From: a virus
Taxonomy: Duplodnaviria > Heunggongvirae > Uroviricota > Caudoviricetes
IMG/VR virus record: IMGVR_UViG_2563366875_000004
Location: 1 to 42,427 of that record
Direction: 5' to 3' (one strand)
Length of the DNA: 42,427 nucleotides
Position 1 is the first letter of the stretch, and every line of letters starts with the position of its first letter. The notes below the pieces were generated by a model that saw only the letters and a list, made by a program, of their open reading frames with translations, ran no database searches and had not been told where the DNA came from. Shown here piece by piece: positions 12,050 through 25,824 of the stretch. Position numbers and translations under genes: made by a program.

Positions 12050-12199
12050 TTTTATACCTTTTGTGTTGTGTGAAGGAGCAGTATAGTCAGAAATGAGACA
12101 AGTGAAAGGGGATAGAAAGTAATAGTTTGTTTTTGTAGAATTGCTGCGGGTGCTTGAGGCTATCTGCCTCAGGCATGAACACCAAAAGGCAGATAGAGA

Positions 12200-12303
12200 A
12201 AAGCCCCAGTTAACATTACGCGTCCTGCAAGACGCTTAACATTAATCTGAGGCCATATCTATGCGACACATAGAGATTAGCCTCTTACGGACCGAAAGGT
12301 CAA
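12200..12303 (-). ncRNA. Sok-like antisense RNA with its promoter (approximate bounds)
   Basis: Minus-strand -35 TTGACC (12298-12303) and -10 TAATCT (12274-12279), 18-nt spacer, reading antisense across the mok start; 3' end not defined. Confidence 0.4.
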
Positions 12304-12320
12304 GGAGAAGCAGGCTATGA
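12261..12320 (+). CDS. mok-like upstream leader ORF (19 codons) coupled to hok
   Basis: ATG 12261; stop TGA overlaps the hok ATG (CTATGA). Confidence 0.3.
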   Translation: MRHIEISLLRTERSRRSRL

Positions 12321-15143: not shown

Positions 15144-15206
15144 TCCGACGCAACCGCAAAATCGGTTGTCGGGATTAGCACCCCGGATGTTTACGGAGCG
15201 ATATGA

Positions 15207-15226
15207 GACGCGCCCGCGTCTTTTTT
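15207..15226 (+). terminator. tR'-like intrinsic terminator
   Basis: GACGC-tetraloop-GCGTC followed by TTTTTT. Confidence 0.5.
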
Positions 15227-15390
15227 CATATCGTTTGCACAGTCACATTCGCGATTAATGGCGGGCTGTGTGGGGGAGCCGAAAGGCTCGCCGGTTTCCG
15301 TACCCGGTAGTGCTAACCCCGCACAGTTCGCCACCACGATGATTAGCACCTGACGGTGGCGATAATGTCCAAATGTACGGAGTTATCGTT

Positions 15391-16956: not shown

Positions 16957-17032
<76 letters not shown>

Positions 17033-17035
17033 TAT

Positions 17036-17110
<75 letters not shown>

Positions 17111-19784: not shown

Positions 19785-20135
19785 ATGCCATCACGAATCC
19801 CCCGCGCATGCCGTAAACGTGGATGTGCAGGTACAACCACAGACAGTTCTGGTTACTGCGATAAACATCGCGGTGAAGGCTGGGTGCAGCACCAGCGCGG
19901 ACTGAGCCGCCACCAGCGCGGCTATGGCTCAAAATGGACGGTGATTCGTGCCCGTATTCTGAAGCGCGATAAAGGTCTGTGTCAGTTGTGTCTGCGTGTC
20001 GGTGTGGTGAGCGAGGCGAAAACCGTCGACCACATCATCCCGAAAGCGCATGGCGGAACAGACGCAGACAGCAACCTGCAGAGTCTGTGCTGGCCTTGCC
20101 ATAAAGAGAAAACAGCGCGCGAACGTATCAACTGA
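19785..20135 (+). CDS. HNH endonuclease (terminase-associated)
   Basis: C-x-x-C...H-x-x-x-H pattern (CQLCLR...VDHIIPKAHGGTDADSNLQSLCWPCH); immediately upstream of the terminase genes. Confidence 0.8.
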   Translation: MPSRIPRACRKRGCAGTTTDSSGYCDKHRGEGWVQHQRGLSRHQRGYGSKWTVIRARILKRDKGLCQLCLRVGVVSEAKTVDHIIPKAHGGTDADSNLQSLCWPCHKEKTARERIN

Positions 20136-20283
20136 TAACTGTTCTCGTCTGTAAGGGAGGGGCGGGTAAAATCTCTGTAACCCTGGGCGTTCGGGACCGC
20201 CCGCCAACCCTTCTTCGCATCGCCGCAGGTTCGAAAACTTTTTTTTGGGAATGTGATTAAACGATTGATAGGTAAAACCGATT

Positions 20284-20766
20284 ATGTCAGGACCCCCGAA
20301 AACCCCGCCACGCCTGCATTTGATACGAGGCAACCCCTCAAAGCGCCCCGTTAAAGACTCCAAAAAAACCGCTAAAAAGGACGAAAAAGGTCTCCCTAAA
20401 ATTCCGCAGCATTTAGGGGCGCAGGGGAAGTACTGGTTCAGGCGAATGGCGGAAGAGCTGAATGCGGAAGGGATCATTTCTCAGCTTGATGCGCGTGCAC
20501 TTGAGTTACTGGTGGAAGCCTACACCGAATACCGGCATCACTGCGAAACACTCGATGTTGAGGGGTATACCTACCGCACGGAAACGCAGAATGGCGATGT
20601 GATGATCAAGGCACATCCGGCTGCGGCGATGAAGGCGGATGCCTGGAAGCGGATCCGGGCGATGCTTGCAGAGTTTGGTATGTCACCGGCAAGCCGGGCG
20701 AAAGTAAATATCGCCGGACCGGATGATGTTGATCCGCTGGCAGAGCTTTTAAAAGCGAGAGACTGA
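20284..20766 (+). CDS. Terminase small subunit (P27-family-like)
   Basis: Basic N-terminus, helical core, ends 1 nt overlapping the large-subunit ATG. Confidence 0.65.
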   Translation: MSGPPKTPPRLHLIRGNPSKRPVKDSKKTAKKDEKGLPKIPQHLGAQGKYWFRRMAEELNAEGIISQLDARALELLVEAYTEYRHHCETLDVEGYTYRTETQNGDVMIKAHPAAAMKADAWKRIRAMLAEFGMSPASRAKVNIAGPDDVDPLAELLKARD

Positions 20767-22523
20767 TGGCAAAAGTGGCTGACGGGATCCGCTACGCCGA
20801 ACGTGTTGTTGCAGGAGAAATTGTCGCTGGCGAATTTGTCCGTCTGGCCTGCCAGCGTTTTCTTGATGATCTGAAGTACGGCGAAGAGCGGGGGATTTAT
20901 TTCAGTGAACCCCGTGCGCAGCACATCCTGAATTTCTACAAATTTGTGCCCCATGTAAAAGGGGCGCTGGCAGGTCAGCCCATTGAACTGATGGACTGGC
21001 ATGTTTTTATCCTCATTAATATTTTTGGTTTTGTCATTCCGCTGGTGAATGAAGAGACCGGGGAAGTTGTCATGCGCAGCGATGGCAGCGGACGCCCGGT
21101 GATGGTGCGCCGGTTCCGGACAGCGTACAACGAAGTCGCCCGTAAAAACGCAAAATCAACCCTGTCATCGGGTATCGGTCTGTATATGACGGGGGCAGAT
21201 GGTGAAGGCGGGGCTGAGGTGTATTCAGCCGCAACCACGCGTGACCAGGCCAGAATTGTGTTTGAAGACGCCAAAAATATGGTCAGGAAAGCCCGGTCGA
21301 CACTCGGGCGGTTGTTTGATTTCAACAAGCTGGCGATTTACCAGGAGCAGAGCGCATCAAAATTTGAACCGCTTTCCTCGGATGCAAACAACCTGGACGG
21401 TCTGAACATCCACTGCGCCATTATTGATGAGCTGCATGCACATAAAACCCGCGACGTGTGGGACGTTCTGGAAACGGCAACCGGTGCCCGTCTGCAGTCC
21501 CTGTTATTTGGTATCACCACGGCGGGCTTTAACAAGGAAGGGATTTGTTACGAGCAACGCGATTACGCCATCAAGGTATTGCGAGGCTATAACAGCGACG
21601 TGGAGGGCGCGGTAAAAGACGACTCCTACTTTGCGATTATTTACACGCTCGATGAGGGAGATGATCCGTTTGATGAAACGGTCTGGCAGAAAGCGAATCC
21701 GGGCCTGGGCATCTGTAAACGCTGGGATGATCTGCGTCGTCTGGCGAAAAAAGCGAAGGAACAGGTTTCAGCGCGGGTGAATTTTTTTACCAAACACATG
21801 AATGTGTGGGTCACTGCCGAGTCTGCCTGGATGGATATGATTAAGTGGGAGAAGTGTGAATACATCGCTCCACAGCATGAGCTGAAAACATATCCCATGT
21901 GGGTCGGCGTCGACCTTGCTCATAAGATTGATATCTGTGCGGCGGCAAAACTCTGGCGAACGGATAACGGGCATGTTCATGCCGATTTTAAATTCTGGCT
22001 TCCGGAAGGACGGCTGGAACGATGCTCACGGCAGCAGGCAGAACTTTACCGGAAGTGGGCGGAGATGGATAAGCTCATCCTGACGGATGGTGATGTTATC
22101 GATCATACTCAGATAAAAAGTGACCTGCTGGAATGGATTGGCGGTGAAAACCTGAGGGAACTGGGATTTGACCCGTGGAGCGCAATGCAGTTCAGTCTGG
22201 CGCTGGCTGAAGAAGGTATACCGCTGGTGGAAGTTCCGCAGACGGTCCGCAATCTGTCAGAGGCCATGAAGGAAACGGAATCACTGGTCTATGCCGGACG
22301 TTTCCACCACAGCAATCACCCGGTCATGAACTGGATGATGTCTAACGTTACGGTGAAACCGGACAAAAACAACAATATCTTCCCGAATAAATCCACGCCG
22401 GAAGCCAAAATCGACGGCCCTGTGGCGATGTTTACAGCAATGAGCCGGATGCTGGTCAATGGCGGTGAACCGGAGCCGGATCTGTCTGAGCATCTGGTCA
22501 GCGTTGGTATTCGCTCGCTTTAA
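20766..22523 (+). CDS. Terminase large subunit
   Basis: 585 aa; ATPase and nuclease regions ([15 protein letters not shown]); canonical position. Confidence 0.9.
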
Positions 22524-22534
22524 CCGAGGTCATT

Positions 22535-22717
22535 ATGTTTCTGATAATTCTCACGCCACTGGTGGGCGTGCTGGGGGCGCTTTTGCTGGCGTATGGCGCC
22601 TGGCTGATTTATCCCCCGGCTGGTTTTGTTGTTGCCGGGGCGCTGTGTCTGTGCTGGTCGTGGCTGGTTGCGCGTTATCTCGATCGCGGTCACCGGGTCG
22701 CCTCCGGAGGTGAGTAA
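22535..22717 (+). CDS. Small membrane protein (60 aa)
   Basis: Two hydrophobic segments; lies between terminase and portal. Confidence 0.4.
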
Positions 22718-23958
22718 TGTTTTTCCAGGGGCTTTTTCAACGCAAAAATAACACCCCCGTCACAACGCCCGGGATGCTTGCGGAAGAGCTGGGGTTGTCA
22801 TACGACACCTATACCGGAAAGCGGATCAGCAGCCAGCGGGCCATGCGGCTGACGGCGGTCTATTCCTGCGTCAGGGTGCTGGCTGAGTCTGTTGGTATGC
22901 TGCCCTGCAGTCTCTACAAAATCAGCGGCACCCTTAAAACACGGGCGGTGGATGAACGGCTGCATAAGCTGATTTCGGCAAAACCCAATGGCTACATGAC
23001 GCCGCAGGAATTCTGGGAACTGGTTATCGTCTGCCTGTGTCTGCGGGGTAATTTTTACGCCTACAAGGTAAAGGCACTGGGGGAAGTGGTGGAGCTTCTT
23101 CCGATAGAGCCGGGCTGTGTGGAGCCGAAGCTGAACAGCCAGTGGCAGCCGGTTTATCAGGTGACGTTTCCGGATGGTTCCGTGGATGTGCTGACCCAGA
23201 ATGAAATCTGGCATGTGCGTACCCTGACGCTGGATGGACTTGTCGGTCTGAATCCCATTGCATATGCGCGCGAGGCCATTTCACTGGCAGCGGCAACCGA
23301 GGAGCATGGTGCCAGATTGTTTGGCAATGGCGCGGTAACATCCGGTGTGTTGCGTACGGATCAACAACTTTCTGACCAGGCTTATGCGCGTATCAAAAAG
23401 GATTTTGAGGAACGGCATGTCGGGCTGGGAAACTCTCATCGTCCGATGATTCTGGAAATGGGGCTGGACTGGAAAACGGTGGCACTGAATGCCGAGGACA
23501 GCCAGTTCCTGGAAACCCGCAAGTTTCAGCTGGAAGAAATCTGTCGCCTGTTCCGCGTGCCGCTGCATATGGTGCAGAACACCGATCGCGCCACCTTCAA
23601 CAATATTGAAGAGCTGGGGCTTGGTTTCATTAACTATTCCCTTGTGCCGTATCTGACCCGTATTGAGCAGCGGATCAATACAGGGCTGGTCAGGGAGAGC
23701 AAGCAGGGAAAATTTTACGCCAAATTTAATGCCGGAGCATTGTTGCGTGGCGACATGAAATCCCGCTTTGAAGCGTATGCCACGGGGATCAACTGGGGGA
23801 TTTATTCCCCTAATGACTGCCGTGATCTGGAAGATATGAATCCCCGACCGGGCGGTGATGTGTATCTGACACCGATGAACATGACCACCAGTCCCTCTGC
23901 TGGCGATGACAACGGTAAGAAAAAGGAGAGTGGAGATGCAGACAAAACAGCGTCTTGA
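22717..23958 (+). CDS. Portal protein, HK97 family
   Basis: 413 aa; GGAGG RBS; position between terminase and prohead protease. Confidence 0.85.
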   Translation: MFFQGLFQRKNNTPVTTPGMLAEELGLSYDTYTGKRISSQRAMRLTAVYSCVRVLAESVGMLPCSLYKISGTLKTRAVDERLHKLISAKPNGYMTPQEFWELVIVCLCLRGNFYAYKVKALGEVVELLPIEPGCVEPKLNSQWQPVYQVTFPDGSVDVLTQNEIWHVRTLTLDGLVGLNPIAYAREAISLAAATEEHGARLFGNGAVTSGVLRTDQQLSDQAYARIKKDFEERHVGLGNSHRPMILEMGLDWKTVALNAEDSQFLETRKFQLEEICRLFRVPLHMVQNTDRATFNNIEELGLGFINYSLVPYLTRIEQRINTGLVRESKQGKFYAKFNAGALLRGDMKSRFEAYATGINWGIYSPNDCRDLEDMNPRPGGDVYLTPMNMTTSPSAGDDNGKKKESGDADKTAS

Positions 23959-24586
23959 TATACCGCTGAACCTGAAATCCGTCAGTGATTCCGGGGAATT
24001 TGAAGGTTACGGTTCTGTTTTTGGTGTTAAGGACAGCCACGATGATGTGGTGGTCCCCGGAGCCTTTACCACAACACTCCAGAAATGGAGCGAAAAAAAG
24101 GCGCTGCCTGCGTTGCTCTGGCAGCACCGCATGGATGAGCCCATCGGTGTGTACACCGAAATGAAAGAAGATGATGTCGGGCTTTATGTCAGGGGACGAT
24201 TACTCATTGATGATGATCCCCTGGCAAAACGTGCACATGCCCATATGAAGGCCGGTTCTTTAACCGGCCTTTCTATTGGCTACATCCTGAAAGACTGGGA
24301 GTACGACCGGGAAAAAGGGGTATTCCTGCTGAAAGAGATCGACCTGTGGGAGGTCAGTCTGGTGACGTTTCCTTCCAATGATGAAGCACGCATCAGCGAT
24401 GTGAAAAATGCGCTGGCGCGTGGGGAGATCCCTGATCAGAAAATTATTGAGCGGGTCCTGCGTGATGTTGGACTCTCGCGAACCCAGGCCAAAGCATTCA
24501 TGGCCGGGGGATATGGCGCTTTATCCCTGCGTGATGCTGAGGATGTGGATGCCGCACTGAATGCACTGAAAAATCTTAAATTTTAA
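23936..24586 (+). CDS. Prohead protease, HK97 family
   Basis: ATG after AAGGAG; follows portal and precedes the major capsid gene. Confidence 0.8.
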   Translation: MQTKQRLDIPLNLKSVSDSGEFEGYGSVFGVKDSHDDVVVPGAFTTTLQKWSEKKALPALLWQHRMDEPIGVYTEMKEDDVGLYVRGRLLIDDDPLAKRAHAHMKAGSLTGLSIGYILKDWEYDREKGVFLLKEIDLWEVSLVTFPSNDEARISDVKNALARGEIPDQKIIERVLRDVGLSRTQAKAFMAGGYGALSLRDAEDVDAALNALKNLKF

Positions 24587-24600
24587 CCAGGAGAAAAATA

Positions 24601-25824
24601 ATGGCTGATGTTAAAGATGTGGAACAGGTCGCGCAGGAGTTGCAGCGGAAGTTTGACGATTTTAAGGAAAAAAACGACAAACGCATTGATGCGATCGAGC
24701 AGGAAAAGGGAAAACTTGCTGGTGAAGTGGAAACCCTCAACGGAAAACTGACTGAACTGGAAAACCTGAAAAGCGATCTTGAGGCTGAGCTGGCTGAAGT
24801 TAAGCGTCCGGCAGGCGGCACGCAAAATAAAGTTGCCGGTGAACACAAAGAAGCGTTTATCGGATTTATGCGCAAGGGGCGTGAAGACGGTCTGCGTGAA
24901 CTTGAACGTAAGGCGCTTCAGGTAGGTAATGATGAAGATGGTGGTTATGCCATTCCGGAAGAACTGGATCGTACCATCCTGACGCTGCTGAAAGATGAGG
25001 TGGTGATGCGCCAGGAAGCCACTGTGATCACCCTCGGTGGCTCGGATTATAAAAAACTGGTGAATCTGGGCGGCACAACGTCCGGATGGGTGGGGGAAAC
25101 GGATGCTCGTCCGGAAACCGCCACCTCAAAACTGGGTCTGATTGAACCCTTTATGGGGGAAATCTACGGCAACCCGCAGGCCACCCAGAAAATGCTCGAT
25201 GATGCTTTCTTCAATGTGGAAGACTGGATCAACAGTGAGCTGGCGCTGGAATTTGCCGAACAGGAAGAAATTGCCTTTACCAGTGGCGACGGCAGCAAAA
25301 AACCAAAAGGTTTTCTGGCTTACGAGTCCACCGATGAAGATGACAAGACCCGTGCGTTTGGCAAACTTCAGCACATTGCTTCCGGTGCGGCTTCCGGCGT
25401 GACTGCCGATGCGATCATTAAACTGATTTACACCCTGCGCAAGGCGCACCGCAGCGGCGCGAAGTTTATGATGAACAACAGCAGCCTGTTTGCCATTCGT
25501 CTGCTGAAGGATAACGACGGAAATTATCTGTGGCGTCCGGGTATTGAGCTGGGTCAGCCTTCTTCTCTGGCAGGGTATGGCATCGTTGAGAATGAACAGA
25601 TGCCGGATATTGCTGCCGATGCAAAAGCCATTGCGTTTGGTAACTTCAAACGTGGCTATACCATCGTTGATCGCATCGGTACCCGTATCCTGCGCGATCC
25701 GTACACCAATAAACCGTTTGTGGGTTTTTATACCACCAAGCGAACCGGCGGTATGCTGGTGGATTCTCAGGCGATTAAGCTGATGAAAATTGGGGCTGCA
25801 ACCCGCCAGAAAGCCGCTGCGTAA
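24601..25824 (+). CDS. Major capsid protein, HK97 fold, with N-terminal coiled-coil delta domain
   Basis: 407 aa; N-terminal heptad-rich scaffold-like region then capsid domain. Confidence 0.85.
   Translation: MADVKDVEQVAQELQRKFDDFKEKNDKRIDAIEQEKGKLAGEVETLNGKLTELENLKSDLEAELAEVKRPAGGTQNKVAGEHKEAFIGFMRKGREDGLRELERKALQVGNDEDGGYAIPEELDRTILTLLKDEVVMRQEATVITLGGSDYKKLVNLGGTTSGWVGETDARPETATSKLGLIEPFMGEIYGNPQATQKMLDDAFFNVEDWINSELALEFAEQEEIAFTSGDGSKKPKGFLAYESTDEDDKTRAFGKLQHIASGAASGVTADAIIKLIYTLRKAHRSGAKFMMNNSSLFAIRLLKDNDGNYLWRPGIELGQPSSLAGYGIVENEQMPDIAADAKAIAFGNFKRGYTIVDRIGTRILRDPYTNKPFVGFYTTKRTGGMLVDSQAIKLMKIGAATRQKAAA

What the first reader, a model, noticed from the sequence alone, without database searches (positions are those of the whole stretch)
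20136..20283. Possible packaging (cos) region between the HNH endonuclease and the terminase small subunit
The intergenic segment carries a GC-rich inverted repeat GGCGGG ... CCCGCC (20163-20168 / 20202-20207) followed by a T8 run. HNH-terminase systems usually cut cos sites located here. This is weakly supported.
Basis: inference. Interest (0 to 1): 0.2.

Follow-up and report, generated by a model that had tools for sequence, protein, structure and literature searches.

The report
Phage cohesive-end (cos) packaging site
The gap between the HNH nuclease gene and the small terminase gene most likely holds this prophage's cos site, where replicated DNA is cut into genome-length pieces for packaging; it is an ordinary, widespread member of the HK97/phiP27 type.

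Summary
The motifs exist, 2 nt left of the stated positions: GGCGGG 20161-20166, CCCGCC 20200-20205, T8 20239-20246. As an inverted repeat they are weak. All-GC 6-mer repeats occur in 7.7% of shuffles, pairing is kept in only 16 of 134 relatives, and there is no terminator or RNA structure.

The right arm lies inside the predicted cohesive end. Window 20198-20207 (CGCCCGCCAA) follows a conserved GGAC. It aligns with four references: the 10-nt cos-site annotated in phiP27, the 10-nt end mapped on SfI virion DNA, the last 10 nt of the HK97 record (known 10-nt 3' overhang), and the termini of the Proteus phage Pm34 record.

About 160 related loci share a fixed layout: a G-run (20155-20173), about 30 nt, GGAC, the 10-mer, 13 nt, then an invariant block ending in the T-run (20218-20246). 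That downstream block changes with the small-terminase (TerS) clade, so it is the likely TerS site. The G-run is shared by all clades, HK97 included.

The same junction occurs in 936 of 5426 complete E. coli genomes. This is a known kind of element of low interest. The physical ends of this phage were not tested.

The parts
19785..20135 (+). HNH endonuclease gene (116 aa), the packaging accessory nuclease
   Evidence: Pfam HNH PF01844, E 3e-16. 99% aa identity to phiP27 L34, 78% to SfV orf53, 34% over 70 aa to HK97 gp74. PDB 5H0M HNH endonuclease, E 5e-13.
20155..20173 (.). Upstream conserved G-rich element GGGAGGGGCGGG + TAAAATC.
   Evidence: Present in all TerS clades, including HK97 (GGGGGGGGG ATCAAATC), SfV/SfI and phiP27. 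It stays when the DNA to its left is unrelated. The distance from the G-run end to the predicted bottom-strand nick is 29-31 nt in 133 of the 134 sequences with a G-run (32 nt in the other); it is 31 nt in the window. Function is inferred only.
20174..20193 (.). Variable spacer between the G-rich element and the cut region
   Evidence: The sequence differs freely among relatives while the length is kept.
20194..20197 (.). GGAC, the conserved flank immediately left of the cohesive-end sequence. The predicted bottom-strand nick lies between 20197 and 20198.
   Evidence: GGAC in 95 and GTAC in 42 of 137 distinct relatives. The Pm34 record ends at ...GGAC. GAC precedes the 10-mer in HK97, SfI and phiP27.
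20198..20207 (.). Predicted cohesive-end sequence (cosN), CGCCCGCCAA, expected as a 10-nt 3' overhang. The predicted top-strand nick lies between 20207 and 20208.
   Evidence: Aligns to the phiP27 annotated cos-site CGCCCGCCCC, the SfI mapped end TGCCCGCCCC, the HK97 terminal CGCCGCCAAA and the Pm34 terminal CGCCCCCTTA. There are always 10 nt between the GAC flank and the right-hand block. The same 10-mer occurs in 12 of 137 distinct relatives. GGACCGCCCGCCAA is unique in the window.
20208..20217 (.). Start of the predicted left genome end (CCCTTCTTCG), a moderately conserved linker
   Evidence: CC[CT]T[CT]T in nearly all clade-A relatives. The distance from the 10-mer to the CGCCGCAGG block is 13 nt in 136 of 137.
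20218..20246 (.).
   Evidence: 20219-20238 is invariant in 60 unique close relatives. It is kept in E. coli, Klebsiella, Morganella, Providencia, Pantoea, Xenorhabdus and, with one or two substitutions, Edwardsiella and Proteus phages with TerS 58-73% identical. It is replaced by a different block (..ACCCGCGAAATT..) in the phiP27/SfV TerS clades. It is unique in the window. CG + A/T tract at +25..+39 resembles the HK97 TerS site at +15..+29 (PMC11331095). Binding itself is inferred.
20284..20766 (+). Small terminase (TerS), P27 family
   Evidence: Pfam Terminase_4 PF05119, E 3e-26. 232 homologues, those named by a source called 'phage terminase small subunit P27 family'.
20766..22523 (+). Large terminase (TerL), HK97-like
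   Evidence: Pfam TerL_ATPase + TerL_nuclease. PDB 6Z6D 'Terminase large subunit', which I take to be the HK97 TerL crystal structure reported in PMC9410871, E 7e-36. 37.5% identity to phiP27 TerL, 29% to HK97 gp2.

Best explanation
The segment is the cos (cohesive end) site of an HK97/phiP27-type temperate phage. It has three parts.

1. The cut site. Terminase (TerL), helped by the adjacent HNH protein, nicks the two strands 10 bp apart: after 20197 on the bottom strand and after 20207 on the top strand. Virion DNA then carries the 10-nt 3' overhang CGCCCGCCAA.
2. The small-terminase site. A block 11-39 bp to the right of the cut (20218-20246, CATCGCCGCAGGTTCGAAAAC + T8) is the likely TerS recognition site. 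It marks the DNA as viral and, at the next cos along the concatemer, stalls the motor so that the terminal cut is made there.
3. The G-rich element. It lies 31-50 bp to the left of the cut (20155-20173), is conserved at fixed distance, and probably helps the nuclease complex at initiation or termination.

Packaging runs rightwards from the cut, so terS, terL and the head genes enter first.

Shown here: sequence homology, fixed spacing, co-variation of the right block with the TerS clade, and agreement with mapped or deposited ends of related phages. Inferred: the polarity and exact nicks in this phage, TerS binding to the right block, and any role of the G-run.
For: - Gene order is HNH, TerS (P27 family), HK97-like TerL, portal, protease, capsid.
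- The window is 92.9% identical to phiP27 from the HNH gene up to base 20205. The phiP27 'cos-site' feature (CGCCCGCCCC) aligns to 20198-20207.
- The SfI end mapped on virion DNA, TGCCCGCCCC, sits at the same position after GGAC (PMC3636060).
- The HK97 record ends GAC CGCCGCCAAA. Its position 1 equals +1 of the published cleavage site (T16, C21, A-tract 23-31 all match). HK97 has 10-nt 3' overhangs.
- The Pm34 record termini fall exactly at GGAC | CGCCCCCTTA. Chance agreement for an arbitrary linearisation point is about 1 in 40,000.
- Across 138 distinct clade-A regions and 23 phiP27-clade loci the layout is fixed: G-run, 29-31 nt, G[G/T]AC or GAC, a 10-mer, then the right block.
- The right block follows the TerS clade, while the G-run and the GAC + CGCC core are shared by all clades.
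- HNH stimulation of cos cutting and the TerS roadblock model come from HK97 work (PMC9410871, PMC11331095, PMC13595911).
Against: - No virion DNA or read data exist for this phage, so the ends are predicted only.
- How the phiP27 cos-site was determined could not be checked; the paper is not held.
- The window's 10-mer differs from every mapped one in its last 2-3 bases.
- The A/T tract lies about 8-10 bp further from the cut than in HK97.
- One paper gives the HK97 overhang as 12 nt in its discussion and 10 nt in its figure legend.
Confidence: 0.85

Rival explanations
1. The GC-rich inverted repeat plus the T8 run is an intrinsic transcription terminator, or another RNA structure, that ends the lysis/HNH transcript before the terminase genes.
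For: A 6-nt G/C inverted repeat and a T8 run both lie in the intergenic region on the coding strand.
Against: - The T-run starts 33 nt after the right arm.
- The terminator scan finds no site between 20136 and 20283.
- The RNA fold has z = +0.69; 154 of 200 shuffles fold at least as well.
- There is no Rfam match even at E <= 10.
- Pairing is not kept in relatives and there are no compensatory changes.
- From general knowledge of lambdoid phages: late transcription of the head genes on circular or concatemeric DNA has to cross this region.
Confidence: 0.04
2. The region is a headful (pac) initiation site rather than a cos site. The conserved blocks recruit terminase, but the cuts are imprecise and virion DNA is terminally redundant.
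For: TerS-type recognition sequences next to terS are also typical of pac phages. No end data exist for this phage.
Against: - TerL matches the 6Z6D large-terminase structure, taken to be HK97 TerL.
- The packaging-type HNH gene sits next to terS, an arrangement conserved across diverse phages alongside HK97, where the HNH protein stimulates cos cleavage (PMC13595911).
- Related phages have defined ends at the homologous 10-mer: SfI, HK97, Pm34.
- The spacing of exactly 10 nt between conserved flanks is kept in about 160 relatives.
Confidence: 0.04
3. The conserved blocks are regulatory DNA for the terminase operon (a promoter, operator or translational signals), and the real cut site is elsewhere.
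For: The region lies directly upstream of terS, and its last 37 nt include the ribosome-binding region.
Against: - No sigma-70-like promoter is found in the intergenic region.
- The conserved blocks coincide with mapped ends in relatives.
- There is no second copy of either block in the 42-kb window.
Confidence: 0.04
4. The inverted repeat and T-run are chance features with no function.
For: The 6-nt repeat alone is unremarkable in shuffles. The window has five T8 runs and one A8 run.
Against: Each element is conserved at fixed spacing across genera, while the flanks and the spacer diverge.
Confidence: 0.02

Closest known systems
cos-site of Stx2e phage phiP27 (NC_003356 / AJ298298, misc_feature 21806-21815)
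   Same: The HNH gene is 99% identical at the protein level. The DNA is 92.9% identical from the HNH gene to base 8 of the 10-mer. The G-run, the spacer and GGAC are the same. The 10-mer starts CGCCCGCC in both.
   Different: The last two bases differ (AA versus CC). Everything to the right is unrelated: the window's TerS is 18% identical, its TerL 37.5% identical, and the right-hand block is different (..ACACCCGCGAAATTAAAAATTT.. in phiP27). I could not check how the phiP27 site was determined.
cos of Shigella phages SfI / SfV / SfII / SfIV (10-nt TGCCCGCCCC, mapped on SfI virion DNA; PMC3636060)
   Same: Same layout: HNH gene, G-run GGGGAGGGGCGGGTCAAATC, about 30 nt, GGAC, 10-mer, A/T-rich block, terS. 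The HNH proteins are 78-79% identical.
   Different: The TerS clade differs (24-25% identity), the right-hand block differs (ATCGTTTTTTTATACCCGCGAAAAATG), and the 10-mer differs at positions 1, 9 and 10.
cos of coliphage HK97 (10-nt 3' overhang; TerS site at +15..+29; HNH gp74 stimulates cutting; PMC11331095, PMC9410871)
   Same: Both have a G-run + ATCAAATC about 30 nt left of GAC, a 10-mer that starts CGCC, and a CG followed by a long A/T tract to the right of the cut. TerL is homologous (PDB 6Z6D E 7e-36) and an HNH protein is present.
   Different: TerS is not detectably related. The HNH protein is only 34% identical over 70 aa, and its gene ends about 320 bp from the cut instead of 62 bp. 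The A/T tract lies at +23..+31 in HK97 and +27..+39 here.
Termini of Proteus phage vB_PvuS_Pm34 (KY420199.1) and the cos regions of mEp235, Fraca and Klebsiella / Morganella / Providencia phages (same TerS clade)
   Same: TerS is 58-73% identical. The right block [CG]A[TC]C[GA]CCGCAGGTTAGAAAACTTTTTT is shared, as is the spacing. The Pm34 linear record ends exactly at GGAC | 10-mer.
   Different: The 10-mers differ (CGCCCCCTTA, CGCCGCCTAA, CGCCGCCTAG, ...). The window combines this right half with a phiP27-type left half.
cos of phage lambda (cosQ, cosN, cosB)
   Same: It works in a similar way: a nicking site flanked downstream by the TerS binding region and upstream by a short element needed at termination.
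   Different: Lambda leaves 12-nt 5' overhangs, uses gpNu1/gpA and IHF, and has no HNH protein. There is no sequence similarity, and the window's TerL matches the PF03354/PF20441 models. The window is not a member of this type.

Membership tests
HK97-type (HNH-assisted, 3'-overhang) cos site | Lies between the packaging HNH gene and terS, in the module HNH-TerS-TerL-portal-protease-capsid | tested here: met
   ORFs 19785-20135, 20284-20766, 20766-22523, 22717-23958, 23906-24586 and 24601-25824. Pfam HNH, Terminase_4, TerL_ATPase and TerL_nuclease.
HK97-type (HNH-assisted, 3'-overhang) cos site | Large terminase homologous to HK97 gp2 | tested here: met
   PDB 6Z6D, E 7e-36 over residues 122-559. 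29% identity by BLASTP, E 1e-40.
HK97-type (HNH-assisted, 3'-overhang) cos site | Sequence homologous to cohesive ends that were mapped or deposited for related phages | tested here: met
   20198-20207 aligns with the phiP27 cos-site, the SfI mapped 10-mer, the HK97 record end and the Pm34 record termini.
HK97-type (HNH-assisted, 3'-overhang) cos site | Virion DNA of this phage has unique ends with a 10-nt 3' overhang | not testable with these tools
   This needs particle DNA or raw reads. Only the prophage sequence is available.
HK97-type (HNH-assisted, 3'-overhang) cos site | TerS recognition site just downstream of the cut (in HK97: +15..+29, a C:G pair plus a 9-bp A-tract) | tested here: inconclusive
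   A clade-specific invariant block with CG + A4 C T8 lies at +11..+39 and co-varies with the TerS clade. However, TerS is not detectably related to HK97 gp1 and binding was not measured.
Intrinsic (Rho-independent) terminator | G+C-rich stem-loop followed within 0-2 nt by a U-run, and more stable than background | tested here: not met
   The scan finds no site in 20136-20283. The T-run lies 33 nt after the stem. The fold z-score is +0.69. Pairing is not conserved.
Lambda-type cos (5' overhang; gpNu1/gpA; IHF) | Lambda-like terminase proteins and similarity to lambda cosN/cosB | tested here: not met
   TerS is in the P27 family and TerL is HK97-like (PF03354/PF20441). No lambda record appears among the DNA matches.
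Known RNA families (Rfam 15) | Covariance-model match in the intergenic region | tested here: not met
   There is no match in 20136-20283 at the gathering threshold, nor at E <= 10.

The most novel reading that the evidence does not exclude
The G-rich element (GGGAGGGGCGGG TAAAATC, 20155-20173) may be a distinct third cos subsite. It sits a fixed 29-31 nt left of the bottom-strand nick and is shared by HK97, SfV/SfI, phiP27 and the mEp235/Pm34 clade, even though their TerS proteins are unrelated. In this reading it is bound by the TerL-HNH nuclease complex and is needed for the terminal cut, like lambda cosQ. The HK97 papers I could read do not mention such a site. If this is right, the module is split at the cut into an HNH/TerL-matched left half and a TerS-matched right half. 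That would explain why the window is a phiP27-left / mEp235-right hybrid joined inside the 10-mer.
Probability: 0.3. Interest if true: 0.4.

Novelty: new member of a known kind. Interest (0 to 1): 0.15.

Why it matters
Practical value is modest.

- It gives the exact point at which this prophage genome, and those of roughly one in six complete E. coli genomes that carry the same junction, should be linearised.
- It predicts the virion ends and identifies DNA that could be used to make cos-plasmids or to recognise packaging-competent prophages and satellites.
- The comparative layout offers testable hypotheses for the HK97 packaging model: a G-run at fixed spacing, a GAC flank, a 10-mer whose 3' bases vary freely, and a right block that follows the TerS clade. 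These suggest which half of cos is read by which protein, and that the last 2-3 bases of the overhang are not recognised.
- It does not change what is known about phage packaging.

Tried and rejected
- **Terminator or RNA element.** The promoter/terminator scan, the RNA fold with shuffles and two Rfam searches gave nothing in the intergenic region.
- **Inverted repeat as a conserved hairpin or cruciform.** Rejected. A perfect 6-nt complement is kept in only 16 of 134 relatives. Left-arm variants (GGGGCAGG, GGGGTGGG, GGGGGAGG, G9) occur with an unchanged right arm.
- **Primary papers.** The phiP27 genome paper and Kala et al. 2014 are not in the held library.
- **Full-text search for the 10-mers.** It returned only unrelated primer hits.
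- **IMG/VR contigs ending at the cut.** Loci are stored as chunks and most come from isolate-genome prophages, so contig ends were uninformative.
- **Second cos-like site in the window.** None was found.

Full report
**What is in the sequence**

The window carries an HNH endonuclease ORF at 19785-20135 and a P27-family small terminase (TerS) at 20284-20766. Next come an HK97-like large terminase (TerL) at 20766-22523, then portal, prohead protease and major capsid genes.

GGCGGG is at 20161-20166, CCCGCC at 20200-20205 and T8 at 20239-20246.

As an inverted repeat this is weak:
- Some 6-nt repeat is expected by chance. An all-G/C one appears in 7.7% of dinucleotide shuffles.
- The T-run lies 33 nt after the stem.
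- The terminator scan is negative in the gap.
- The RNA fold has z = +0.69.
- Rfam finds nothing there.

**Homology to known ends**

A megablast of 19785-20800 against phage records found phiP27 at 92.9% identity over 19785-20205. The match ends on a feature annotated 'cos-site'.

In phiP27 that feature is the 10-mer CGCCCGCCCC, 61 nt after the HNH stop codon and directly after GGAC. It aligns to window 20198-20207, CGCCCGCCAA.

Three other phages give the same position:
- **SfI.** Direct sequencing of virion DNA ends found a 10-nt gap, TGCCCGCCCC (PMC3636060). The SfI record ends ...GGAC TGCCCGCCCC.
- **HK97.** The record ends ...GAC CGCCGCCAAA and starts GTTTGAATTTAACGCTAACCCGATTTTTTTAG. Record position 1 equals +1 of the published cleavage site, because T16, the C:G pair at 21 and the A-tract all fit (PMC11331095). 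HK97 ends carry 10-nt 3' overhangs (PMC9410871; PhageTerm left/right peaks at 2047/2036, PMC5557969).
- **Pm34.** This Proteus phage has a TerS 64% identical to the window's. Its linear record has one end at ...CACCTAGGAC and the other at CGCCCCCTTA CCTCTTTTCACATC.... That is exactly the predicted bottom-strand nick.

**Conserved layout**

Two IMG/VR scans, one by TerS protein and one by the right-hand block, gave 138 distinct cos regions of the window's TerS clade.

All but one share this layout:
- A G-run (GGGGAGGG[C/G]GGG) followed by [T/A]CAAA-like bases.
- 29-31 nt of free sequence in 133 of the 134 with a G-run (32 nt in one; three have no G-run).
- G[G/T]AC.
- A 10-mer that starts CGCC.
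- 13 nt (in 136 of 137).
- CGCCGCAGGTT[A/C]GAAAAC and a T-run of six or more (7-9 in the closest relatives).

The exception is CharmingMan, described under side observations.

The 10-mers are CGCCGCCTAA (58), CGCCGCCTGA (41), CGCCGCCTAG (13), CGCCCGCCAA (12, the window's type) and a few others. The first 4-8 bases are therefore conserved and the last 2-3 vary freely.

In 60 unique close relatives, positions 20219-20238 never vary.

The same layout appears in Klebsiella, Morganella, Providencia, Pantoea, Xenorhabdus, Edwardsiella and Proteus phages or prophages with TerS 58-73% identical.

**Which protein reads which part (inference)**

Phages with a different TerS clade keep the G-run, the spacing and the GAC + 10-mer. 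These are phiP27, SfV, SfI and 720R4 (18-25% identical to the window's TerS), plus 23 IMG/VR loci found through the phiP27 TerS. They have a different right-hand block..[A/G]C[A/G]C[C/A]CGCGAAATTAAAAATTT.. or ATCGTTTTTTTATACCCGCGAAAAATG. HK97 has a third block.

So the right block follows TerS, and the left half is common to all.

In HK97 the TerS nonamer binds +15..+29, a C:G pair followed by a 9-bp A-tract that must stay A/T-rich (PMC11331095). The window has CG at +25/+26 followed by AAAACTTTTTTTT up to +39.

This is an analogy of position and composition only. The window's TerS shows no sequence or fold similarity to HK97 gp1.

The role of the G-run is unknown. Its fixed distance from the nick and its presence in all clades suggest that the TerL-HNH nuclease reads it, perhaps at termination in the manner of lambda cosQ.

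**Mechanism proposed**

1. TerS binds the right block on concatemeric DNA.
2. TerL, helped by HNH, nicks after 20197 (bottom strand) and after 20207 (top strand). HK97 gp74 stimulates cos cutting and is essential in vivo (PMC9410871, PMC13595911).
3. Packaging proceeds rightwards.
4. TerS bound at the next cos stalls the motor and triggers the terminal cut.
5. This leaves 10-nt 3' overhangs of sequence CGCCCGCCAA.

**The inverted repeat itself**

The two arms belong to two different elements, the G-run and the cohesive-end core. Both happen to be G/C-rich. A perfect 6-nt complement survives in only 16 of 134 relatives, and left-arm changes are never compensated. There is no evidence for a hairpin or cruciform signal.

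**How common it is**

The HNH-cos-terS junction (window 20100-20400) occurs in 936 of 5426 complete E. coli genomes, mostly at 90-95% identity. The window combines a phiP27-type left half with an mEp235/Pm34-type right half, and the similarity to phiP27 stops inside the 10-mer. Twelve of the 137 distinct clade-A regions carry the window's 10-mer, and several of these also have a phiP27-like left flank.

**Side observations**

Three deposited records show irregularities close to the predicted ends:
- CharmingMan has 22 nt, including the 10-mer, in reverse complement.
- Fraca starts with 126 nt of terL-internal sequence fused at the predicted left end.
- The circular record of PSTRCR_117lys lacks about 45 nt that include cosN.

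These are most simply assembly artefacts at physical DNA ends.

**Verdict**

It is of a known kind, is common, and is of low interest. The one open point is the function of the conserved upstream G-run. The ends of this particular phage remain a prediction until particle DNA is examined.

Noticed in passing
window 19785-20205 versus 20206 onward: Nucleotide similarity to phiP27 (92.9%) runs from the start of the HNH gene and stops inside the 10-nt cohesive-end sequence. To the right, the terminase module belongs to a different clade (mEp235 / Fraca / Pm34). The cut site is therefore a mosaic joint, and 12 of the 137 distinct clade-A cos regions carry the window's 10-mer, several with a phiP27-like left flank.
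   Followed up: partly
L090 (Escherichia phage CharmingMan PP925830.1, reverse strand), about locus 480-525: The 22 nt GCGCCAAAGGACCGCCGCCTAA, found in normal orientation in its close relatives, appear as their reverse complement (TTAGGCGGCGGTCCTTTGGCGC). The inverted piece starts exactly at the predicted top-strand end, and the first 4 nt of the left end (CCTC) are missing. This is probably an assembly artefact at a physical end, but a real inversion of cosN is not excluded.
   Followed up: partly
L003 1-130 (Escherichia phage Fraca LR597645.1): The record starts with about 126 nt that translate to an internal piece of TerL (..[32 protein letters not shown]). This piece is fused at CCTC|TTTTCACAT, the predicted left genome end. 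The record also repeats about 70 nt of the cos region at both ends. It looks like a chimeric assembly at the terminus.
   Followed up: partly
L097/L098 (Providencia phage PSTRCR_117lys MW358929.1, circular record junction): The circularised record joins ...CCCTACCACTCTCGCC directly to GGTTAGAAAAC.... Compared with Pm34 it lacks about 45 nt, including GGAC, the 10-mer and the start of the TerS block. This is probably assembly loss at the cos ends.
   Followed up: no
L093 1-20 (SfV NC_003444.1): The SfV record starts at TCCGGAC TGCCCGCCCC, 7 nt to the left of the 10-mer that was mapped experimentally in the near-identical SfI. Deposited start points in this group are therefore not consistent with each other.
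   Followed up: no
window 12148-12319, 15150-15226, 15254-15338: Rfam matches above the gathering score: sok antitoxin RNA of a hok/sok-type module (108 bits), isrK Hfq-binding RNA (74 bits) and a C4 antisense RNA (77 bits).
   Followed up: no
window 16957-17032 and 17036-17110: Two adjacent phage-borne tRNA genes, tRNA-Thr (UGU) and tRNA-Gly (UCC), lie upstream of the lysis genes. SfI carries tRNA-Asn and tRNA-Thr downstream of gene Q (PMC3636060).
   Followed up: no
alignments A3 and A4 (TerS, window residues 16-21 and 132-138): Two of the invariant stretches of the P27-family TerS lie in the N-terminal arm (GNPxKR) and in a C-terminal segment (G-x-x-P-x-x-R, with Ser-Arg at 137-138). These are the two regions that form the DNA-binding 'arginine clamp' in HK97 TerS (Arg7, and Ser127-Arg128), although the proteins show no detectable homology.
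   Followed up: partly
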